A stretch of 48,852 nucleotides of DNA, taken from positions 1 to 48,852 of IMG/VR virus record IMGVR_UViG_3300010399_000003. One strand, written 5' to 3'. A program made the position numbers and the translations under genes. The first letter of the stretch is position 1; each line of letters opens with the position of its first letter. The notes beneath the pieces were generated by a model. The model saw only the letters and a list, made by a program, of their open reading frames with translations. It was not told where the DNA came from and did not search any database. The stretch comes from a virus. Shown in pieces: positions 39,459 through 48,852 of the stretch.

Positions 39459-40769
39459 TTAGGAAACCCACTCATAACCAGTGATCCAAACATAGCCGGT
39501 GCCAGCACCAACACGGAAATACATCGCCTGCATCTCAGTGTGAAATTCCGACGAAAAGCCAACAACCATGCTATTCGCTGCGGCTGGTTGTTGCATAATA
39601 ACATTATTGCGGAGCGTTGTTGAACGCATGTCATAGGCATCTGGAACCGGACCAATGCAAACACTTGCACCGTTCGTTGTATTTTGACCAGCAGCCCACA
39701 CTTTAGTTGGTCCATACGGAATTACCGTTGCCAGATCCGTGAGTACTTCAATAGTTGACGTTGAACCATTCACGATGAGATGATCATTTAATAATTGAGC
39801 GCGTCGGTCAGTTTGAATGAACGCGTCGAAGTTGCTCGAACCATCATTGTAAACATAGCCAACCTTTGTATTCTTTGTATAACCAGTTGGCATCGTCGGC
39901 ACACTATCGTTAAGGCGAGTGTGTGTTTTGAATGTATAATCGGCAGTTGCACTTGAAGTCCAAGTCGTTCCATCGTAGCCATAGAACTGACCATTTGCGT
40001 AAACACTACCTCCTGCGGAATAGTGCCACGAAACATAGTTGACAGCACTCGTGGTATAATCACCTTGTAGAACAATGTAATATGTCGTGCCGGAGGTCAG
40101 AGTTGCAGGTGATCGGAAGATGAATTGTACCCACTGACTAGACGTGCTGAATGCATTAGCGTCGAGTTTGTCCGACGTCGCGAGTGGCGTTCCGGATGGA
40201 CTGCCACTGGAATCTGCTTCAATAGTCAACCATACACGACCTGCTGGATTACCAGCACGAAACATCAGAATATCAACTGCGTCCAGAGGACCAGTCGTGC
40301 CTGGCTTAAAGCTCTGACCTTCCTTGACGTTGGTTGTGGCACCAAATCGGAGTGGGCTATTTGTTGTCTGTGCCGTTTGCGATTGATCAACAGGTGCGGA
40401 TTTCGCCTTGTGTAAAAGCAAACCCTTAGTGCCATCATCTTTAGCAATGGCGTGCACTTCGTATCGAGTTGACGCAGCCTCGCTACCAGTGTCAAGGCCG
40501 TTTGCGCCAGAAACAGTAATATCAGCGGTCTGACCATCCCAATTACTCAGACGAGTTCCATCACTCATCACGATTTCATCCGCCTTTAACCAGACTCGAC
40601 TTGCAGCCAAGTTAAAGTCAGGATGTGTCCGCAAGCGTAGACCACGAAAAGTTTGTAACAGATGGTGTTCAGATCGAAGTGAGTTAAGATTATCACGAAT
40701 ATGGGTATTCAGCATCGAGGCTGTCACCATTTCGCCAGCGTTCCACGTACGAGGATTTGTCCAAGCCAT
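39459..40769 (-). CDS. tail fibre protein
   Basis: The N-terminus MAWTNPRTWNAGEMVTASMLNTHIRDNLNSL resembles conserved phage fibre N-termini. The remainder is Gly/Thr/Ser/Asn-rich. TAATG coupling to the upstream gene. Confidence 0.5.
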   Translation of the reverse strand: MAWTNPRTWNAGEMVTASMLNTHIRDNLNSLRSEHHLLQTFRGLRLRTHPDFNLAASRVWLKADEIVMSDGTRLSNWDGQTADITVSGANGLDTGSEAASTRYEVHAIAKDDGTKGLLLHKAKSAPVDQSQTAQTTNSPLRFGATTNVKEGQSFKPGTTGPLDAVDILMFRAGNPAGRVWLTIEADSSGSPSGTPLATSDKLDANAFSTSSQWVQFIFRSPATLTSGTTYYIVLQGDYTTSAVNYVSWHYSAGGSVYANGQFYGYDGTTWTSSATADYTFKTHTRLNDSVPTMPTGYTKNTKVGYVYNDGSSNFDAFIQTDRRAQLLNDHLIVNGSTSTIEVLTDLATVIPYGPTKVWAAGQNTTNGASVCIGPVPDAYDMRSTTLRNNVIMQQPAAANSMVVGFSSEFHTEMQAMYFRVGAGTGYVWITGYEWVS

Positions 40770-41923
40770 TATCTTGCCCTCTCTCCGAGGTCAACGCGTG
40801 CAAACATCGGATCATCGTAGGAGTAAACAAGCACCTGCCGTGCGTTGGCTCGTGCCCAGATTTCTAGATCCGGCATCTCTTCAAAACGACGTTGTGATAC
40901 AATGAAAGTATCACAATTCGTAACTTGTTCACGAATCATTGGATCTGCAAGATTGCCACACACAAGAAATCCGCGGCCACGGACTTTATCGTAATCCATT
41001 TCAATGCCCATGATCGGCATTTGAAAATCATCGCGAATCCGTTCAAGCAATTTTCCATTACCAGCGCCAAGATCAACGACCAAACCTGCAGGTGGTTGCA
41101 CATTGAGTTCCGCCAAAATCATGGCATGAGCTCGTTCCATGTTGGCTTCGGAATTGAATCCGTTTTCGGTCCAATCTTTCGATCGCATGAGTTTGAGTGG
41201 TTTTGTTGGTTGTTGCTGATATGGAAAGACAAGACCGCGTGCACCTTCGTCTGGATACGAAGTGCCAATTCGACGCACCACACGATTTCCTAATACAGTC
41301 GTTCGCGTCGAGACTTTCAAAATCGGATACTTGATTTCAGCGAGACCGTTCTTTGCGGACCACTCGATTGGCCAACTTAGAATATCGCGTGCCCATCCAA
41401 GTTCTTTCCGTGGCCACAAGGCATCCAAACTTTGAGCGAACAACCATGTATCATCACAGGTGAACGAGCATGGTAGATGCGGCACTAATCGAACACCAAG
41501 CCAACGACCAAGAATATTGCACTCGAGTGGACCGGAGACATGTAACGGATCTGGACCAGCCATATCCCACGTCGTATCGACATTTCCATTGACTTTCACT
41601 CGCTGAAAAAACTGCCGACAACATCGCGGATAGCGCAGCAATCGACCAACCGCGTCATCATCTCGTTTCCGATAGGCTCTCGCAAGTTCCTCAGCCAACG
41701 GTCCGACTGCAAAACGATCCTGATCCACAATCAGTGCCGGTGACAAGCCAGATTTCTGCACGAGCTTTTCACCGTAGACTAATGCCACAGATCGCAGTCC
41801 GAGTCGCACGGATGCCAATTCCACTTCCAGCCACGCGTTCGATACAGCCTGCAAACGTGGTCCCCAAATTTCACGCGCCTTGCTATTCGCCCACATGATT
41901 CGCGTCGAATCAGAAGGAGGCAT
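40769..41923 (-). CDS. two-domain protein: Cys-containing N-terminal domain plus C-terminal class I SAM methyltransferase domain
   Basis: Motif I LVVDLGAGNGKLLE, followed by GIEMD and CGNLAD. N-terminal YPRCCRQFF...HLPCSFTCD. Start at the Met preceded by GGAGA (41923), overlapping the radical SAM stop by 14 nt. Confidence 0.6.
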   Translation of the reverse strand: MPPSDSTRIMWANSKAREIWGPRLQAVSNAWLEVELASVRLGLRSVALVYGEKLVQKSGLSPALIVDQDRFAVGPLAEELARAYRKRDDDAVGRLLRYPRCCRQFFQRVKVNGNVDTTWDMAGPDPLHVSGPLECNILGRWLGVRLVPHLPCSFTCDDTWLFAQSLDALWPRKELGWARDILSWPIEWSAKNGLAEIKYPILKVSTRTTVLGNRVVRRIGTSYPDEGARGLVFPYQQQPTKPLKLMRSKDWTENGFNSEANMERAHAMILAELNVQPPAGLVVDLGAGNGKLLERIRDDFQMPIMGIEMDYDKVRGRGFLVCGNLADPMIREQVTNCDTFIVSQRRFEEMPDLEIWARANARQVLVYSYDDPMFARVDLGERAR

Positions 41924-43214
41924 CCGAATCTCCATGCATCACAGTCGTACCAGAGTCGCCATGAACAACATACGGATTATCTGCGTGTTGATATCCGTCA
42001 GGTGCATCCCAATGATCACCATGAGGATGATCCTGTAAAATCTCTGGTTCCTTACCCGATAACACGGATTGCAGAGCTTCGTGAATGGAAATGTTCTTGC
42101 CGGATTCCCAGAAGCGCAACATAACTGCGTCCACACGCTGCCGTAATTCTGGTTGTTTCGAAAGCGGCACGCGACCTTCTTGAATCAGATCAGCTTCCAT
42201 CCGTTCGAACAGCGCCATCCAACTCGCGCAATGTTCACTGCGATTCCGCCAATCACCGTCCTGTGCGGTGCCAGGACACTGACCTTTGCACGCAAAGAAA
42301 AACCTACATCCCTGACAACCAAGTTCCTCTTGAGGTGTATGGTAGAGTGCGACTTGCCGATCGTGGCTCACGACATCGGCCTTCCGCCAATCCACACCTT
42401 CTTTGTTCATACGACCGCAATTCGAGGATTCACCCTGACCATTCACGCCGCGCACCGCGGCAGTCGTGTAAGGATCACAAGCATTCCAGATACATGTCAC
42501 CTGTTGATCTTCAGCCATGAGCAATTTGCGCATGTCATTGAAGATATCAAAATCAATTCCGGGATGCATTTTCTGAAAATGATACAACGATAACAAGGCA
42601 GCCGTGTTTTCTTCATTCGTTAATGCCATCGTCGAACGCACACGATCATTCTCAACTTCGAGCAGATGGATTCGCATACTGCGAATTCCGAGCTTGTTCA
42701 GGGTGGTGAACCACTGCATGAGTCGCCAAAGTCGTTCGCCAACAGCATTTCCTCGATAGAGCGTCGTGATGATACTTGGTACGATCTTCACTTTGAGCAA
42801 TTTATGTAATGCAACGAAGCTCGCATGCGTTGCTGCACGAGTCTTTTCCAAGGTGCCAGCCCAACGACTGTCGTTTAGTTCGTCTGGACCATCTAGTGAC
42901 AAACCGACATGCACTTTGTATCGCTGAAATAGTACAATGTGTTCGTCGGTAATCAGCGTGCCATTGGATTGGATGCTGTTTGAACCAAATCGCTCAAGCC
43001 CGTAGGCAAAGATCTCTTCAAGAATCGGTAATGGTGTAAGGAGTGCTTCGCCGCCGAAAATGGAAAATTGACCACCCTCGCGTTCAAGACCTGCTTTCAT
43101 CTTTTCGAAATTGTAACCTTGTGTGATATTGCCAGCTTCACGCATTTGATTCTGATAGCAATAATCACATGATAGATTACATGCCACGCCAACAGGCGTC
43201 AATTCAATAGACAT
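41910..43214 (-). CDS. radical SAM enzyme with SPASM-type C-terminal domain (anSME/peptide-maturase-like)
   Basis: CNLSCDYC (CX3CX2C), IFGGEALL, then the auxiliary-cluster pattern CIWNAC...NCG...CQGCRFFFACKGQC (CX2CX5CX3C). 1-nt TGATG overlap with the upstream tail gene. Confidence 0.85.
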   Translation of the reverse strand: MSIELTPVGVACNLSCDYCYQNQMREAGNITQGYNFEKMKAGLEREGGQFSIFGGEALLTPLPILEEIFAYGLERFGSNSIQSNGTLITDEHIVLFQRYKVHVGLSLDGPDELNDSRWAGTLEKTRAATHASFVALHKLLKVKIVPSIITTLYRGNAVGERLWRLMQWFTTLNKLGIRSMRIHLLEVENDRVRSTMALTNEENTAALLSLYHFQKMHPGIDFDIFNDMRKLLMAEDQQVTCIWNACDPYTTAAVRGVNGQGESSNCGRMNKEGVDWRKADVVSHDRQVALYHTPQEELGCQGCRFFFACKGQCPGTAQDGDWRNRSEHCASWMALFERMEADLIQEGRVPLSKQPELRQRVDAVMLRFWESGKNISIHEALQSVLSGKEPEILQDHPHGDHWDAPDGYQHADNPYVVHGDSGTTVMHGDSDASF

Positions 43215-45418
43215 CAGTTTAAATCCCCATGAGCAATATCACTGTGTTGATCACCATGTGGCGTATCGGTATGCAACACATCCGTGTGAGCAACGTCGCC
43301 GTGCGCAGTATCAGCATGTGCTGAATCGGAATGTGCTGTATCTGAGTGAACACCGTCTGCATGAGCCGCAATATCAGAATGTGCTGTATCAGAATGTGCT
43401 GTATCGCCGTGACTAACGTCAGCGTGCGCCACGTCAGAATGTGTGTTGACTAAGGCGACATCCGAATGCGCAGTATCCGAATGTGAATCTACGTGTGCCG
43501 AGTCACTATGTGAATCACTGTGCGAATCGGTATGCGAATCACCATGCGCAATGTGACCAGGTGAATCGAAAAATTCTTCACGATCAACGTGCGAATCAGA
43601 GTGAGAATCTTCGTGTGCGATATCAGAGTGAGCTACGTCGGAGTGGGAATCAGAGTGAGCTACGTCGGAGTGCGCCGTATCACCATGCGTATCACTATGT
43701 GCAGTATCAGTATGCGCGCGGTCTGAATGAGCAGCGTCGCCATGAGCAACGTCTGAATGAGCGACGTCACCGTGCGTTCCAGCATCTGCATGTGCAGCAT
43801 CACCATGGGCAACGTCCTGATGTGCATCATCAGTATGCGTATCGGAATGAGCTATGTCTCCGTGTGCAGTATCCTGATGCACGTCAGAATGAGCCACATC
43901 TGTATGACCAACGATCAAACCAAATCCAAGTCGCGTTGATCCATCAAGTTCGGAAAGTCCCTCGATTTCCAATAACCAAAATGCCGTTGAATCAGCAGGG
44001 ACAAGTGTAAATTCGGTTCGGAGTGTATTATCTTGTTCCGTCTCAGTGATTGAATTAATGTAGAATGAACGCGTGATACCAGTCACGTAATCCGTCAGAC
44101 CAATACGATCACTGATGTCACGATCAAGGCTTCTTGCTAATTCTAATGCATCGCTATTCAAGCCAACAAAACGAACGAGACCCGAAACTTGTGTTATCGG
44201 AAAGGCCATAGAAAAAACGAAATATTGCGCAGCTTCCAATCCAAATCGTGGATCAGCTTGATACACCATATCAATCTGTTGCACGATTGGACCATACTGT
44301 GCAATACTCGTATCGTCTTTCCACTGCATGACAGTCGCACCATAATCATACAATGGTTTCCCGCGTTGTTGTAGTTTCGTCAAATAGCCAGTCACACCTC
44401 CGTTGTACGTCACAGAAAATTCTGTCGCGTTTCCAGAAAAACCAATCGTCACCGACACAAAACCTGTCAGATTCGTTCCGCTTCCATCACTCGCCGTATT
44501 TGCTGTGTAATCGGTAGTCGCTGTGATTGGTGCTAAATCAGCAGCGCCAACACGAACGTCTGGATTATCTGGATCTGTCCAAGGCCCAAGAATTGTAATA
44601 GTCTGGCCAGGGATTAGCTCCATTGGTTGTTTCATCGAGAACATGACAACGTAGCTGGAGCCAGGCACCCGAGGATGAACAGTTGATTGAACCTTGTTGA
44701 TCAGACTAGTACGATCTCGATCGGCGACAAACCCAAAATGATCATCATACACATCAGCATTAGTTGCACTGATTGCACGACGGGTTCTGGATTCATACAC
44801 AACAGTTCCGTCACCACGTATCCAGCAACGATCTAAACCACTAATGCATAGACGATAAATTTCATCGCGAAGCACTGTCTGTTCATCTCGTGTACGATCC
44901 AGTGAATACGGAAAAATATCAGCACTCAAATCCATTTCCAATGCGTCAGGCTGGCTGACGATCGGAATTGAATCAATGAGGACCTGGAAAATCTCGTCAC
45001 CTCGTTTGTTGATTTGTACTGGAAGATTTTCTAATCTCGTTCGCTGTGCAACATCCATCCAATCGACAACTTCACACGATACCGTACGAGGACCGTGCCG
45101 ACCAGTGATTGGAGTGATTGAATCTAACACGCCAGTAAATCGGATGATACTGCCGATTCGATAGCGCACACGGATATTCAATTCAAATCCAGATCTCCTA
45201 TTTTCATGATCTGGACTGTAATATCCGATTAATCCAACACTGTTTCGTTCGCTATTGTCGAGTGAAAAGGACAGAGTGCCGATATCGGCTACAAGATCAA
45301 GAATGGAAGAACCAGGGAGACCACGATGCCACGTGATGCCAGGACCACGAAGCACATCGGTAACGGTCGTCCAACCATTACCACGGCCGCTGAATTCCAT
45401 TTCAATGATGCCACTCAT
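43214..45418 (-). CDS. tail (distal tail/tip) protein with C-terminal His-x-Asp repeat domain
   Basis: Follows the tape measure gene with a 4-nt overlap. The N-terminal ~500 aa is beta-rich, the position typical of Dit/tail-tip proteins. The C-terminal 231 aa is almost entirely (A)H-x-D-x repeats. Confidence 0.6.
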   Translation of the reverse strand: MSGIIEMEFSGRGNGWTTVTDVLRGPGITWHRGLPGSSILDLVADIGTLSFSLDNSERNSVGLIGYYSPDHENRRSGFELNIRVRYRIGSIIRFTGVLDSITPITGRHGPRTVSCEVVDWMDVAQRTRLENLPVQINKRGDEIFQVLIDSIPIVSQPDALEMDLSADIFPYSLDRTRDEQTVLRDEIYRLCISGLDRCWIRGDGTVVYESRTRRAISATNADVYDDHFGFVADRDRTSLINKVQSTVHPRVPGSSYVVMFSMKQPMELIPGQTITILGPWTDPDNPDVRVGAADLAPITATTDYTANTASDGSGTNLTGFVSVTIGFSGNATEFSVTYNGGVTGYLTKLQQRGKPLYDYGATVMQWKDDTSIAQYGPIVQQIDMVYQADPRFGLEAAQYFVFSMAFPITQVSGLVRFVGLNSDALELARSLDRDISDRIGLTDYVTGITRSFYINSITETEQDNTLRTEFTLVPADSTAFWLLEIEGLSELDGSTRLGFGLIVGHTDVAHSDVHQDTAHGDIAHSDTHTDDAHQDVAHGDAAHADAGTHGDVAHSDVAHGDAAHSDRAHTDTAHSDTHGDTAHSDVAHSDSHSDVAHSDIAHEDSHSDSHVDREEFFDSPGHIAHGDSHTDSHSDSHSDSAHVDSHSDTAHSDVALVNTHSDVAHADVSHGDTAHSDTAHSDIAAHADGVHSDTAHSDSAHADTAHGDVAHTDVLHTDTPHGDQHSDIAHGDLN
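43217..43909 (-). repeat. coding tandem repeats (12-15 nt periodicity) encoding the HxD repeat domain
   Basis: Protein residues 504-734 begin GHTDVAHSDVHQDTAHGDIAHSDTHTDDAHQDVAHGD and end HGDQHSDIAHGDLN. About 45 H-x-D triplets by hand count, interrupted once by REEFFDSPGHIA. Confidence 0.9.
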
Positions 45419-48400
45419 GCCGTCCGCAATCCGACTAAGCCAGTAGCGATCGCACGAGACATAGCACGCGGCAGCGATGTTTTCAAATCTGAGCGAAGAC
45501 CGTTGATAGAATCGACGACTTCCTCATTCGACGGCATCTCCGGGAAACCACCCTGATTCAGTTGACGCAAACCTTCATTGCCGAGTCGTTCCATGCCTTT
45601 CGTTGTAACAATGCCCTCGCCAGGTGTAAGCATCGTCGCCACTGTATCCGAACCTCTCGCAGGCCACGGACCTTCGAGCACCGGTCCGCCAACGGCCAAG
45701 TATTGCACACCGGATGCCGTGACGCGACCGCCACGCGATGCGTAATCAGGGATGTCCGGCGCAATGTAATGACCTTCAATCTGGATATCGAAATCCTTGG
45801 GGATTTTATCCAGTTCCGTCTTCATATTCGCGGCAGTCGTTTTAGTCTGTTGCTCCATTGCACGAAGACCTTCAGGGATCTTCGCACCGAGCGCGTCACC
45901 GATTGCCATCAGCACGTCAAGGATCTTTTGATTATCCGATTTCGCCTGTTCACCGATGAGCCCGGATTGCACGCCTTGATCAATCAATGCTTGCGTCGAT
46001 TCATCGACGCTGTAGCCGTAGCGCTGCTGCATCTCCCAGATTGTTTGGAGATCACCACGCATCGCAAGCATCACAGTGTCACTGGAATAACCCTGTGCCA
46101 CCAACGCTTCTTCAGTCGCGGCAATCTGACCGGCCAGACCTGAGAATGTCTCCTGATTCAGGATACCAGCGTTGCTCAGACCGATCATACCAGCGGTGTA
46201 GCCTTCAATGGATTCGAGTGCCGGACCCGCGATTTCATCATTCGCGAAATCAACCATGTTCTTGATGAAATCGAATGCAGCACCTCCAGTGTAACCAGTC
46301 GCTTCCAACTGCGCCTGCAACAATTCGACGTTTGGACCAATCGCCCTGACCGACTCGATAAATGATTTGCCAGCCTCCATGTTCGCCGAGACAATACCAG
46401 CCAACGAACTAGCAACTGCACTCGCGGCTTCTTGTGAATGAAGTCCGGTCACTTCGATAATTCGATCATTGTTCTCGATCTGATCATGCAACGCCATCAA
46501 GCCCTTGTATTCAGCTTCGTTCTTCGCAATGATCTGATCAATCTGGATTTGAATTGCCATTTTATGCCCAAGATCCGCCTTGGCATACTTGGCTTCGAGA
46601 TCCATGATTTTCGCGATGTCTAGGTATTCATCCTGATCCATTTCCGCGCGGCGCTTGGAGAATTCCGCTTGTTGTTTCGCCCGATCTGCGTATGCATTAC
46701 CGGTGATTCTCAATGCCGCACTGAAACCAGTCTGCGCATTAGTTAGCTGACCGGATACATATGCGGCGATCTCTTTCGATTGAGTTCCGTATTGTCCGTT
46801 CAGCTTGATGATTTCAACAAGCTGTTTATCCAACATCCCAAGATTGTTGGTACCAGCTTGTGCAAATTGCGCAAAGTTTTCATCCATGACTTTCGCACCT
46901 TGTGCGATCGTCATTTGATGTGTTTCAATCAGTGAGAACACATCGTGGAATCTATCCGTCATTTGTGCTAGATTATCTTTTGAGAGACCTCCGGCTTCCT
47001 TGATGATATCAGATAAATGCGATATTGCCGCGGCCTGCCGACTTCCTCCGAAATCTTCCTTTGCAGATTTTGCAATCGCCTTCGCAAGATCGTCTGAAAT
47101 CTTCTCACCAAAATCCCGCCCGACTTCTTCCGCAGCCTTGGCCCACGCAGGTTTTCCACGAATGATGCCAACCACCAAACCAGCCGCTGCGCCGACAGCC
47201 ATTCCATAAGGCCCGAACATCGAACCAGCCTGAGCCCCAGCCATCATACCACCAAGTGCGTTACCGGCGGCAGATGAATGTGCGGAAGTCGCGTCCCAAA
47301 CCGCAATTGCACCTTGAGCGATACCAGCTGCGGTTTGTACACCAGCAGCGAACTTCTGCATCCTGTCGGCATTATCATTGAAAATCGTGCTCAGCGGTCC
47401 GAAGTGACCACCAAGTTCATGACCATCAATACCAAGTTGTTTTGATTGCTTATGCGCACTTTCAAGTCCGACAACAACTTGTCCAACTCCGCTGAGTATC
47501 GCACCCATCATCCCGCCGGTCACTTGACCAAGTTTGGTGAAATACTCGGAGATCGTCGCAAGTGACTCAGATGCCCGTCTTTCTGCAGCTGCCAATTTAT
47601 CGAGTTTGATTCTCAGTTCGTCGATTTCTGTAGACTTACGACCGACATCTTCCAAACTTAGCGCCATGTTATAGAAGCCTTGTAATGGCGCAGGAATACT
47701 CCGTTCAACCATTTTAAGTCCAGCAGCAACTTCCACCTGCGTCCGAACCCATTTCAATTCAGTCTCGTCGACTTCTAAGAGTTTTGAATGGAATCCCTTC
47801 AATTCACCGAATTGAATCTTAACGAGCTGCGCACCAATTTTCTTTTGCTCAGCCCATTGTTTTTCTGCATATACAACGCTTTCAACAATGGGTTTTGTTA
47901 CGCTGTATGCCGCGGCGATTTCAGCAATTGATTTACCACGTGCATGATCAAAGGCGATTCCTTCATATAACGTCGCGCCAATTTTGGCCATGACGTTTTG
48001 ATAATCGCCAAGTTTTGCATTGTAATTCGTCAAAGCCGCTTCGATTTTTGTCTGTTCGGCTGCGGATTTCTTGAGTTCCGTGATGTAGGCTTTCGTTGCC
48101 GCTTCTGTCGCACCAGTGACTTTGAGGATTTCCTTTATCGACTCGGTGTTCATAGCCACGCGAGTATATTCTTTTTGTGCTTCAGTCAGCGGCGTTAACG
48201 CAGCATCTTTCAAAGATTTCAATTTCTGTGACATCAAATCGGCACCAGCCGCACTGTTCGCCATGGATGCTGCAACAGCTTGTAGTGCAGGATGCCCAGC
48301 CAGAGCCTCTTTATTTACTCCGGCGATAGCAACTCCAACCTGTTTCATTAATGGCGTCGAAAAATTATTCGCTTTTGCCGTCGCCATCACTGAACGTTCA

Positions 48401-48852
48401 AGTTCGTCGAGTTGCGTCGCCGTGTGTCCAGAATTACTTGATAGATCTGAAATCGCTTCTTGTAAATCTTTCGCCCCACCGTGCGCTTTACGAAACTGTT
48501 CGTTATTGAAAGCAATTGCTTCGGCGTAGCGTTTGGCTTGATCTGTTTCGGTTGACGACCAACCATCTTTCAGAGCTTTATTCAATACGAATTGTTTGGC
48601 TGCAGCTGTTTCTGTTTGTAATTGTGCTTCTGCAGTCGCCTGCCGCCAACTTGTATAAGCCAAAGTCACGCCAGCAATCGCAGCCGCGATTGCCACAAAT
48701 GGATGTGCCAAAATGATATTGTAGAGTTTGGTAAAAGCTGCACCGAGATTCGCCAAAGCTGCTTCACCGAGTGTTCCCCATCCAAACGCTTGGGTCATGA
48801 CACTCAGTTTGAAAATTTCAGCGGCAAGACTCGCTATCCAACCACCAAGTTT
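45415..48852 (-). CDS. tail tape measure protein (5' end possibly outside window)
   Basis: More than 1100 aa, Ala/Gln/Lys-rich and helical, with hydrophobic N-terminal and Gly-rich central segments. C-terminal GSDTVATMLTPGEGIVTTKGMERLG block. The frame upstream of ATG 48798 has no stop up to the window edge. Confidence 0.8.
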   Translation of the reverse strand, partial: KLGGWIASLAAEIFKLSVMTQAFGWGTLGEAALANLGAAFTKLYNIILAHPFVAIAAAIAGVTLAYTSWRQATAEAQLQTETAAAKQFVLNKALKDGWSSTETDQAKRYAEAIAFNNEQFRKAHGGAKDLQEAISDLSSNSGHTATQLDELERSVMATAKANNFSTPLMKQVGVAIAGVNKEALAGHPALQAVAASMANSAAGADLMSQKLKSLKDAALTPLTEAQKEYTRVAMNTESIKEILKVTGATEAATKAYITELKKSAAEQTKIEAALTNYNAKLGDYQNVMAKIGATLYEGIAFDHARGKSIAEIAAAYSVTKPIVESVVYAEKQWAEQKKIGAQLVKIQFGELKGFHSKLLEVDETELKWVRTQVEVAAGLKMVERSIPAPLQGFYNMALSLEDVGRKSTEIDELRIKLDKLAAAERRASESLATISEYFTKLGQVTGGMMGAILSGVGQVVVGLESAHKQSKQLGIDGHELGGHFGPLSTIFNDNADRMQKFAAGVQTAAGIAQGAIAVWDATSAHSSAAGNALGGMMAGAQAGSMFGPYGMAVGAAAGLVVGIIRGKPAWAKAAEEVGRDFGEKISDDLAKAIAKSAKEDFGGSRQAAAISHLSDIIKEAGGLSKDNLAQMTDRFHDVFSLIETHQMTIAQGAKVMDENFAQFAQAGTNNLGMLDKQLVEIIKLNGQYGTQSKEIAAYVSGQLTNAQTGFSAALRITGNAYADRAKQQAEFSKRRAEMDQDEYLDIAKIMDLEAKYAKADLGHKMAIQIQIDQIIAKNEAEYKGLMALHDQIENNDRIIEVTGLHSQEAASAVASSLAGIVSANMEAGKSFIESVRAIGPNVELLQAQLEATGYTGGAAFDFIKNMVDFANDEIAGPALESIEGYTAGMIGLSNAGILNQETFSGLAGQIAATEEALVAQGYSSDTVMLAMRGDLQTIWEMQQRYGYSVDESTQALIDQGVQSGLIGEQAKSDNQKILDVLMAIGDALGAKIPEGLRAMEQQTKTTAANMKTELDKIPKDFDIQIEGHYIAPDIPDYASRGGRVTASGVQYLAVGGPVLEGPWPARGSDTVATMLTPGEGIVTTKGMERLGNEGLRQLNQGGFPEMPSNEEVVDSINGLRSDLKTSLPRAMSRAIATGLVGLRTA

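What the first reader, a model, noticed from the sequence alone, without database searches (positions are those of the whole stretch)
41913..42029. The radical SAM enzyme itself ends in an HxD-containing tail resembling its putative substrate
The last ~39 residues of the rSAM protein, HPHGDHWDAPDGYQHADNPYVVHGDSGTTVMHGDSDASF, lie beyond the SPASM cysteines. They contain HGD three times, plus HAD and HWD, the same triplets that build the upstream repeat domain. The 3' end of this tail also overlaps the start of the methyltransferase gene.

Possible readings:
- a self-substrate or auto-inhibitory pseudo-substrate
- a metal-binding tail
- a docking element that co-assembles with the HxD array
Basis: seen in the sequence. 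Interest (0 to 1): 0.5.

Follow-up and report, generated by a model that had tools for sequence, protein, structure and literature searches.

The report
Substrate-like HxD tail on phage radical SAM enzyme
A phage radical SAM enzyme ends in a short, strongly conserved, floppy tail built from the same His-x-Asp triplets that fill the tail protein encoded next to it, so it probably carries a small tethered copy of its own substrate motif, but many relatives do without this tail.

Summary
Residues 396-434 of the 434-aa radical SAM/SPASM protein (nt 41913-42029, minus strand) hold five HxD triplets; the other 395 residues hold none (shuffle P about 2e-4).

The tail is not loose low complexity. In the 29 closest homologs it is better conserved than the catalytic core (0.66 vs 0.62 identity). 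All five His and five Asp are invariant, while the preceding linker is hypervariable (0.15). AlphaFold predicts it disordered.

The gene belongs to a widespread, uncharacterised three-gene module: an HxD-array protein, the rSAM and a DUF483(-methyltransferase). DUF483 is present in 113 of 113 well-flanked loci and an array in 97 of 113.

The tail is accessory. Only 54 of 152 orthologs have it, and 46 of 87 loci with strong arrays have a tail-less enzyme. Tails also have their own signature, HGDH[W/T/Y]D, and range up to 200-aa arrays fused to the enzyme.

Best reading (about 40%): an enzyme-tethered mini-substrate or pseudosubstrate that enters the active site. The chemistry is inferred, by analogy with triceptide synthases, to be a His-to-Asp crosslink. 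Metal binding and docking remain live rivals.

The overlap with the downstream gene is real but only 14 nt, and the last HGD codons supply that gene's ribosome-binding site.

The parts
41913..42029 (-). C-terminal tail of the rSAM protein (aa 396-434) with five HxD triplets
   Evidence: Translation. Enrichment statistics. AlphaFold pLDDT is below 50 for residues 403-434.
41925..42023 (-). Conserved core of the tail (aa 398-430): HGDHWDAPDG-xx-HxD-x5-HGDxGxTxMHGD(S)
   Evidence: In the 29 closest homologs all five His and five Asp are 100% conserved. G399, W402, A404, P405, D406, G407, G419, G422 and T424 are conserved at 93-100%.
42024..42056 (-). Hypervariable linker (aa 387-397) between the last predicted helix and the conserved tail
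   Evidence: Mean identity is 0.15, against 0.62 for the core and 0.66 for the tail. The last helix is 377-386.
41910..43214 (-). Radical SAM/SPASM maturase gene (434 aa plus stop)
   Evidence: Pfam Radical_SAM, E = 2e-14. Full-length but sub-threshold NCBIfam matches to anSME, DynA and cyclophane-forming maturases. Foldseek top hits are anSMEcpe and the triceptide synthase ChlB.
43158..43181 (-). CX3CX2C radical SAM cluster motif (C12, C16, C19)
   Evidence: Conserved at 90% or more in alignments A1 and A2.
42228..42494 (-). SPASM region with eight conserved Cys (241, 246, 266, 300, 303, 309, 313, 329)
   Evidence: Invariant columns in a 117-sequence alignment. The pattern CX14GX4C ... CX2CX5CX3C ... 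C can be read directly from the sequence.
43214..45418 (-). 734-aa protein directly downstream of the tape measure gene (distal-tail-protein position); the putative substrate
   Evidence: ORF list. The upstream ORF matches a tape measure PHROG. The same order is seen on public contig L163, with tail terminator and Phage_tail_T upstream.
43223..43906 (-). HxD array: 45 HxD triplets in aa 505-732, period 5 or 4, consensus (A)H[SGTA]Dx
40769..41923 (-). DUF483 plus class I SAM-methyltransferase gene (384 aa), probably translationally coupled to the rSAM gene
   Evidence: Pfam DUF483 and MetW. A 100% identical public protein of 384 aa exists. PDB profile hits cover only the methyltransferase half. 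A homolog is present in 113 of 113 well-flanked loci.
41930..41933 (-). GGAG Shine-Dalgarno-like element for the DUF483 gene, lying inside the codons of the last HGD (G428-D429)
   Evidence: Sequence reading. There is a 6-nt spacer to ATG 41923.

Best explanation
**What the tail is.** It is a short copy of the system's substrate motif, tethered to the enzyme.

**The operon.** This late tail-gene operon encodes three products:
- a virion tail protein whose C-terminus is an array of 45 His-x-Asp triplets;
- a radical SAM/SPASM maturase;
- a DUF483-methyltransferase partner.

**Proposed chemistry on the array (inferred).** By analogy with triceptide (three-residue cyclophane) synthases, the maturase is inferred to:
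- cleave SAM;
- abstract a hydrogen from the third residue of each triplet (Asp C-beta);
- couple that carbon to the imidazole of the His two residues upstream, with a loss of 2 Da per site.

The methyltransferase may add a later methylation.

**Proposed role of the tail (inferred).** The enzyme's last 39 residues are a disordered mini-array of five invariant HxD units on a hypervariable linker. I propose that this tail threads into the catalytic cleft of the same or a neighbouring enzyme molecule. There it acts either as a true self-substrate or as a pseudosubstrate placeholder that the multivalent array displaces.

**What is shown here.** The motif and its enrichment, its strong positional conservation, its predicted disorder, the genomic linkage to arrays and DUF483, the accessory status of the tail, and the existence of natural enzyme-array fusions.

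**What is inferred.** The chemistry, and that the tail ever enters the active site.
For: - **Same motif as the linked array.** The tail has five HxD triplets, the core has none, and shuffle P = 1.7e-4.
- **Tight linkage to arrays.** In 113 loci with at least 3 kb on both sides, DUF483 is present in 113 and an HxD array in 97. The median distance from array to rSAM is 56 nt. Only 1.1% of all 14,930 ORFs reach that HxD density.
- **Selection on every triplet.** Tail identity is 0.66, against 0.62 for the core and 0.15 for the linker. All His and Asp of the triplets are invariant in 29 homologs of 53-70% identity.
- **Long retention.** The tail is kept in every member of a 19-tip clade reaching the Thermus phages at about 50% identity.
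- **Continuum to full fusions.** Orthologs carry 94 aa with 10 HxD (P0061), 173 aa with 21 HxD (P0056) and about 200 aa with 31 HxD (L138) at the same C-terminal position.
- **Peptide-like physical character.** AlphaFold gives pLDDT below 50 for residues 403-434, attached to a confidently folded core with mean pLDDT 88.9.
- **Enzyme kinship fits peptide side-chain chemistry.**
  - Foldseek top hits are anSMEcpe (6.5e-14) and the triceptide synthase ChlB (7.3e-14).
  - NCBIfam gives sub-threshold matches to DynA, AmcB, YhhB, GrrM/OscB and XyeB.
  - His-C2 to C-beta crosslinks on HAA, HNR and HTK triplets are established for HaaB, YhhB and HtkB (PMC11499958).
- **Exclusive to this enzyme family.** The tail motif is found only at the end of this rSAM family among 1.84 billion representative proteins. 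The DUF483 partner carries no HxD clusters.
Against: - Fifty-nine percent of orthologs (90 of 152) have no HxD in the tail. Of 87 loci with strong arrays, 46 have a tail-less enzyme, so the enzyme can serve an array without the tail.
- Tails are not array-like in detail.
  - X2 is Gly in 56% of tail triplets against 16% in arrays.
  - Spacing 3 accounts for 33% of tail spacings against 9% in arrays.
  - A tail-specific doublet, HGDH[W/T/Y]D, is present in 69 of 83 tail-bearing homologs.
  - This points to a specialised role that need not be catalytic turnover.
- AlphaFold does not place the tail in the active site with any confidence.
- No modification has been demonstrated for any member of this module. 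The only paper that mentions it guessed DNA modification (PMC11437467).
- All NCBIfam scores are far below the family cut-offs, so the His-Asp crosslink is an analogy and not a classification.
Confidence: 0.4

Rival explanations
1. Metal-binding tail. The His/Asp/Gly-rich segment chelates divalent metal (Fe, Zn, Ni or Cu) and folds only around the metal. It might help load or protect the three Fe-S clusters, or deliver metal to the His/Asp array.
For: - The composition is 6 His, 7 Asp and 5 Gly in 39 residues.
- Tails have their own signature, HGDH[W/T/Y]D with Gly at X2, plus conserved turn-like DAPDG and GxT elements that differ from the arrays.
- Invariance of every His and Asp is what ligand residues would show.
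- Low AlphaFold confidence is compatible with metal-dependent folding.
- His-rich C-terminal tails on metallochaperones are well known (own knowledge).
Against: - It does not explain why the tail uses exactly the triplet of the genetically linked array.
- It does not explain why tails grade into full arrays fused to the enzyme.
- More than half of the orthologs, with identical Cys ligands, need no such tail.
- No known metal-site motif was matched.
Confidence: 0.25
2. Docking handle. The tail binds the HxD array through homotypic or metal-bridged strand pairing, or binds the DUF483 partner. This keeps the enzyme on its multivalent substrate or assembles the rSAM-DUF483 complex, without the tail being turned over.
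For: - In 15 of 15 natural rSAM-DUF483 fusions the HxD tail is absent, against 54 of 137 unfused enzymes that have it (Fisher P = 0.0012). This is as expected if the tail substitutes for a covalent link.
- In P0244 the tail sits between the rSAM and a methyltransferase domain.
- The rSAM has no N-terminal recognition domain, since its cluster motif starts at residue 12. Substrate recruitment must therefore come from elsewhere.
- DUF483 is present in 113 of 113 loci.
Against: - The fusions are phylogenetically clustered, 12 of them in one clade, so the association is not independent evidence.
- Seventy-five unfused enzymes lack the tail.
- Arrays in tail-less loci show no compensating feature.
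- There is no evidence that HxD arrays self-associate.
Confidence: 0.2
3. Functionless by-product. The tail is a low-complexity remnant of recombination with the array gene, or is kept only because it overlaps the start and ribosome-binding site of the downstream gene.
For: - The tail has been gained or lost about 12 times across 147 tips, and its length varies widely.
- The last HGD codons contain the GGAG of the next gene.
Against: - Position-specific conservation exceeds that of the catalytic core, next to a hypervariable linker.
- The overlap covers only 14 of 117 nt.
- In Thermus phage Cumys the two genes do not overlap, yet the tail is present.
- Tail and array DNA share no more than chance: the longest common word is 11 nt.
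Confidence: 0.05

Closest known systems
Triceptide synthases (three-residue cyclophane-forming rSAM/SPASM enzymes: HaaB, HtkB, YhhB, ChlB, XyeB, GrrM/OscB)
   Same: - rSAM/SPASM architecture.
- The substrate is defined by repeated aromatic-x-x triplets; His-C2 to C-beta links on HAA, HNR and HTK are known (PMC11499958).
- ChlB is a joint top structural match.
- NCBIfam gives weak hits to several members.
   Different: - All family scores are far below the cut-offs.
- The substrate here is a large virion protein with 45 sites, not a small leader-core peptide.
- An HxD triplet with Asp at position 3 was not found in the literature searched.
- There is an obligate DUF483 partner.
- The enzyme carries its own HxD tail.
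- No crosslink has been shown.
rSAM module of Thermus phages Cumys, phiMa and phiLo (Kolesnik et al. 2024, PMC11437467)
   Same: - It is the same three-gene module.
- The rSAM is 49-53% identical.
- Cumys_13 is an HxD-array protein with 54 HxD, and Cumys_11 is DUF483.
- The Cumys and phiLo enzymes also end in HxD tails.
   Different: - In the passages read, the paper did not mention the HxD repeats or the tail, and it suggested DNA modification.
- In Cumys the DUF483 protein lacks the methyltransferase domain, and the array sits on a fibre-like protein rather than in the distal-tail position.
HXS anti-phage system (HxsA His-Xaa-Ser repeat effector matured by rSAM enzymes HxsB and HxsC; PMC13128918)
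   Same: A protein, not a small peptide, with His-x-small-residue repeats is matured by rSAM/SPASM enzymes.
   Different: - HxsA has five HxS repeats against 45 HxD here.
- The system has two rSAM enzymes plus HxsD, and no DUF483.
- It is a bacterial defence system, not a phage tail module.
- The HxsB model scores 28 bits against a cut-off of 370.
Anaerobic sulfatase-maturing enzyme (anSME)
   Same: - Best NCBIfam match (73.7 bits, full length) and best structural match.
- It acts on a folded protein substrate without a recognition domain.
- It has eight auxiliary-cluster Cys.
   Different: - The score is far below the cut-off of 349.
- There is no sulfatase or C/S-x-P-x-R motif nearby.
- The linked substrate motif is HxD.
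Borosin enzymes such as OphMA (core peptide fused to the C-terminus of its own N-methyltransferase; own knowledge)
   Same: A substrate-type sequence sits at the C-terminus of the modifying enzyme on a flexible tether. This is the precedent for auto-modification.
   Different: - It belongs to an unrelated enzyme class.
- There the fused peptide is the only substrate and is released as the product.
- Here a separate large array protein exists, and the tail is missing in most orthologs.

Membership tests
Radical SAM superfamily | CX3CX2C motif binding the SAM-cleaving [4Fe-4S] cluster; Pfam PF04055 above threshold | tested here: met
   C12, C16 and C19 are conserved. PF04055 scores 54.6 bits against a cut-off of 29.5.
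SPASM subfamily | C-terminal CX9-15GX4C ... CX2CX5CX3C ... C motif for two auxiliary clusters | tested here: met
   C246-x14-G261-x4-C266, C300-x2-C303-x5-C309-x3-C313 and C329, plus C241; all are invariant in 117 sequences. The fold matches anSMEcpe and ChlB.
Triceptide synthase (3-CyFE) | Membership of a curated 3-CyFE family (AmcB, YhhB, GrrM/OscB, XyeB, FxsB models) | tested here: not met
   Scores are 31-52 bits against cut-offs of 310-450.
Triceptide synthase (3-CyFE) | Cognate substrate with aromatic-X-X triplets encoded next to the enzyme | tested here: met
   An HxD array is present in 97 of 113 well-flanked loci, at a median distance of 56 nt. The window's array has 45 triplets.
Triceptide synthase (3-CyFE) | Aromatic ring to C-beta crosslink (minus 2 Da) formed on the triplet | not testable with these tools
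   Needs mass spectrometry or NMR of the modified protein.
Anaerobic sulfatase-maturing enzyme | TIGR03942 above cut-off and a sulfatase substrate | tested here: not met
   73.7 bits against a cut-off of 349.45. No sulfatase was seen in the neighbourhood.
HXS system | Paired rSAM enzymes HxsB and HxsC, HxsD, and an HxS-repeat HxsA | tested here: not met
   HxsB model scores 28.1 bits against a cut-off of 370. There is a single rSAM gene, and the repeats are HxD, not HxS.
HxD-array / rSAM / DUF483 module (uncurated; Cumys rSAM module) | The three genes adjacent: HxD-array protein, this rSAM clade, and a DUF483 protein | tested here: met
   The window has all three in one minus-strand operon. 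The same trio occurs in Cumys and across 113 loci.
Enzyme-substrate fusion (borosin-like auto-modification) | Substrate-type sequence at the enzyme's C-terminus | tested here: met
   Five HxD triplets on a flexible tail. Longer fusions exist in P0056, P0061 and L138.
Enzyme-substrate fusion (borosin-like auto-modification) | The enzyme modifies its own tail | not testable with these tools
   Needs mass spectrometry of the purified enzyme. AlphaFold gave no confident docking.

The most novel reading that the evidence does not exclude
This would be the first radical SAM enzyme that modifies its own C-terminal tail, a borosin-like enzyme-substrate fusion in the rSAM world. It would sit within a previously unrecognised phage system that staples virion tail proteins with dozens of His-to-Asp side-chain crosslinks. 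The tail would serve as a built-in primer or placeholder for that multivalent reaction.
Probability: 0.25. Interest if true: 0.8.

Novelty: new variant of a known kind. Interest (0 to 1): 0.6.

Why it matters
**If the reading is right.**
- Phages, including culturable Thermus phages, would use a radical SAM enzyme to install dozens of covalent side-chain staples in a structural tail protein. That would move RiPP-type chemistry from small peptides to virion proteins.
- It would explain a module of more than 2,000 homologs that has so far only been guessed to act on DNA.

**Why the tail is a practical entry point.**
- It predicts that the purified enzyme itself carries the modification.
- One intact-mass measurement on a single recombinant protein could therefore reveal the chemistry of the whole system.

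**If the reading is wrong.**
- The conserved HGDHxD tail would still be a defined and easily truncated handle for studying how this enzyme finds a 45-site substrate.

Tried and rejected
- **Near-identical phage DNA.** No match in the phage collection. Relatives are detectable only at the protein level.
- **Recent duplication of array DNA.** Rejected. The longest shared word is 11 nt, as in codon-shuffled controls.
- **Conservation forced by the overlapping gene.** Rejected. Only 14 nt overlap, and Cumys has the tail without any overlap.
- **Compensating HGDHxD doublets in arrays of tail-less loci.** None found: 8 of 66 tail-less loci against 12 of 50 tail-bearing loci.
- **HxD clusters on the DUF483 partner or on other window proteins.** None found.
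- **Standalone peptides or other proteins carrying the tail motif.** All five strong hits (E <= 1.7e-5) among 1.84 billion representatives are C-termini of this rSAM family. The other three of the eight hits were weak; the one inspected (P0246) is an unrelated repeat protein and two were not inspected.
- **AlphaFold docking of the tail in the active site.** No confident placement; the tail is disordered.
- **Family assignment of the 734-aa protein.** No Pfam, NCBIfam or PHROG match, even at E <= 1 for the N-terminal 470 aa.
- **Literature.** No paper on HxD repeats with rSAM enzymes was found. The DUF483 search gave only the Thermus phage paper.
- **Corrected recollection.** My memory that rSAM enzymes make aminomalonate from Asp was wrong. 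The cited case is over-oxidation of Ser.
Full report
**Observation**

The minus-strand ORF 41910..43214 encodes a 434-aa protein ending in HPHGDHWDAPDGYQHADNPYVVHGDSGTTVMHGDSDASF. This is residues 396-434, nt 41913-42029.
- The tail contains HGD398, HWD401, HAD410, HGD418 and HGD427. The other 395 residues contain no HxD at all.
- From the core composition 0.05 triplets are expected (P = 2e-9). Shuffling the tail's own residues reaches five triplets in 1.7e-4 of trials.
- The tail lies after all eight conserved auxiliary-cluster cysteines (241-329) and after three further helices, the last ending at residue 386.
- The upstream 734-aa protein carries 45 HxD triplets in residues 505-730, spaced 5 (29 times) or 4 (11 times) apart. 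The middle residue is S, G, T or A.
- These are the only two ORFs in the window with HxD clusters.

**Gene context**

The operon is a siphovirus-type tail module.
- On an identical public contig the order is: tail terminator, Phage_tail_T chaperone, tape measure, the 734-aa array protein, the rSAM, a 384-aa DUF483 protein, then a 436-aa protein.
- The downstream gene is a DUF483 domain fused to a class I SAM methyltransferase.
- Its public gene call of 384 aa, together with a GGAG 6 nt upstream, places the start at ATG 41923. The overlap with the rSAM gene is therefore 14 nt, and the ribosome-binding site lies inside the codons of the last HGD.

**The enzyme**

- It has the CX3CX2C motif at residues 12-19, with no N-terminal recognition domain. 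It also has a complete SPASM cysteine pattern.
- NCBIfam gives only sub-threshold matches. The best are anSME (73.7 bits, cut-off 349) and DynA (68 bits), followed by several cyclophane-forming maturases.
- An AlphaFold model built on 117 homologs is confident for the core (mean pLDDT 88.9) but below 50 for residues 403-434.
- Foldseek ranks anSMEcpe (6.5e-14) and the triceptide synthase ChlB (7.3e-14) jointly first.

**Relatives**

- The family is large: 2,194 proteins at E <= 1e-30.
- Thermus phages Cumys, phiMa and phiLo have 49-53% identical enzymes.
- In Cumys the gene is flanked by Cumys_13, a 344-aa protein with 54 HxD triplets, and by the DUF483 protein Cumys_11. The Cumys and phiLo enzymes also end in HxD tails.
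- Kolesnik et al. noted this three-gene "rSAM module" and suggested DNA modification. The passages I read do not mention the repeats (PMC11437467).
- I fetched 160 further loci from viral contigs and genomes. Among the 113 loci with at least 3 kb on both sides:
  - a DUF483 homolog is present in all 113;
  - an HxD array (at least 8 triplets per 100 aa) is present in 97, at a median 56 nt from the rSAM gene;
  - only 1.1% of all 14,930 ORFs reach that density.
- Gene order varies: the array is upstream in phages and often downstream in bacterial genomes. Fifteen loci have rSAM-DUF483 fusions.

**Is the tail conserved?**

Within the window's lineage, yes, and strongly.
- In the 29 closest homologs (53-70% identity) mean identity is 0.62 for the core, 0.37 for the C-terminal helices, 0.15 for linker residues 387-397 and 0.66 for tail residues 398-434.
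- All five His and five Asp of the triplets are invariant. G399, W402, A404, P405, D406, G407, G419, G422 and T424 are nearly invariant.
- On a neighbour-joining tree of the catalytic cores, tail presence forms blocks, with 12 parsimony changes over 147 tips. The window sits in a 19-tip clade that includes the Thermus phages, and every member has a tail.

**Is the tail universal?**

No.
- Of 152 orthologs with a readable C-terminus, 54 have at least two HxD in the tail, 8 have one and 90 have none.
- Of 87 loci with a strong array, 37 enzymes have the tail, 4 have a single HxD and 46 have none.
The tail is an accessory.
- Arrays in tail-less loci show no compensating feature, and DUF483 proteins never carry HxD clusters.

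**What kind of sequence is the tail?**

It is not a plain copy of the array.
- The middle residue is Gly in 56% of tail triplets against 16% in arrays. Spacing 3 makes up 33% of tail spacings against 9% in arrays.
- A doublet, HGDH[W/T/Y]D, occurs in 69 of 83 tail-bearing homologs.
- Tail and array DNA in the window share no more than chance.
- Tail length is a continuum. P0061 has 94 aa with 10 HxD, P0056 has 173 aa with 21 HxD, and the L138 enzyme has about 200 aa with 31 HxD. These amount to enzyme-array fusions.
- A phmmer search with the 39-aa tail against 1.84 billion representative proteins gave eight hits at E <= 0.001. All five strong ones are C-termini of this rSAM family. One of them has the tail between the rSAM and a methyltransferase domain, and another has an intein-like insertion in its SPASM motif. 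The other three were weak; the one inspected is an unrelated repeat protein.

**Mechanism**

Established facts about related enzymes:
- Triceptide synthases are rSAM/SPASM enzymes that link an aromatic ring to the C-beta of the residue two positions downstream. His-C2 links are known on HAA, HNR and HTK triplets (PMC11499958).
- The HXS defence system shows that rSAM enzymes can mature a protein with His-x-Ser repeats (PMC13128918).

Inference for this system:
- The enzyme crosslinks, or otherwise modifies, each HxD unit of the tail-protein array, with DUF483 as an obligate partner and the methyltransferase as an optional tailoring step.
- The enzyme's own tail is a tethered mini-array. I think it most likely enters the catalytic cleft as a self-substrate or as a pseudosubstrate placeholder (confidence 0.4).

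Rivals:
- Metal binding (0.25). It is favoured by the composition and the tail-specific signature. It does not explain the shared triplet or the fusions.
- Docking to the array or to DUF483 (0.2). The tail is absent from all 15 rSAM-DUF483 fusions (Fisher P = 0.0012), but these fusions are phylogenetically clustered.
- A functionless remnant (0.05). The conservation pattern contradicts it.

None of these can be separated without experiments. The modification chemistry is not shown for any member.

**Comparison with known systems, and novelty**

- The protein is a member of the radical SAM superfamily and of the SPASM subfamily.
- It is not a member of any curated maturase family, because all scores are far below the cut-offs.
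- It belongs to the uncurated HxD-array / rSAM / DUF483 module already seen in Thermus phages. Neither the repeats nor the enzyme's tail were described in the literature I could search.
- I rate it a new variant of a known kind: an rSAM/SPASM protein maturase with an unusual substrate-like tail.

**Verdict**

- Interest is 0.6. The tail gives a direct one-protein experiment that could reveal the chemistry of a large uncharacterised phage system. Its own function remains unproven, and most relatives do without it.

Noticed in passing
window 40769-41923 (minus strand); alignment A3: The DUF483 domain of the partner protein has invariant C101, C102, H149, C152 and C156, a possible metal or Fe-S site. 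Its AlphaFold model is very confident (pLDDT 94.9), but no solved structure matches it; only the methyltransferase half matches. It is present in 113 of 113 well-flanked loci and is fused to the rSAM in 15 loci.
   Followed up: partly
P0245 (752 aa, homolog): An rSAM ortholog carries a large intein-like insertion inside the SPASM CX2CX5CX3C motif, between CKGQC and CPGTAIDGDWRNR. It still ends in the conserved HGDHWDAPEG...HGD tail.
   Followed up: no
P0244 (558 aa, homolog): This protein reads rSAM, then HxD tail, then a class I methyltransferase domain, with no DUF483 domain. The tail is therefore internal. It could be a real fusion or an assembly or deletion artefact.
   Followed up: no
L138 6974-8836 and 8763-10664: In a Planctomycetota MAG the rSAM has a C-terminal extension of about 200 aa with 31 HxD, rich in HGDHGDHGD. 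Its DUF483 protein has an extra C-terminal domain with an HExxH-like motif (LVHEMAHCKL). A separate 141-aa HxD array lies downstream.
   Followed up: partly
window 41928-41936 (minus strand): Only the last HGD of the tail uses the codons CAT GGA GAT, which create the GGAG ribosome-binding site of the downstream DUF483 gene. The other HGD triplets use GGT GAT or GGC GAC.
   Followed up: yes
window 39459-40769 (minus strand): The 436-aa protein after the DUF483 gene has a choice-of-anchor R domain (NCBIfam, 31.5 bits, just above the cut-off) and matches an unknown-function PHROG. It is probably a further tail or fibre component.
   Followed up: no
window 45415-48798 (minus strand): The tape measure ORF is listed as 1127 aa in the window, but the same gene is 1503 aa on public contig L163. 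The longer call implies an upstream start beyond the first start codon used for the mechanical ORF listing (or beyond the window end); this was not resolved.
   Followed up: partly
L068, L022, L027-L036 (viral loci): Some phage loci carry several separate HxD-array ORFs, two to five, around one rSAM gene. In one clade the rSAM tail is reduced to a single conserved HADHTDETG motif followed by a non-HxD C-terminus.
   Followed up: no
PMC11437467 (Thermus phage Cumys paper): The published suggestion that this rSAM module modifies DNA rests on co-occurrence with deazapurine genes in some cyanobacteria. The HxD arrays next to the enzyme in nearly all loci point to a protein substrate instead.
   Followed up: partly
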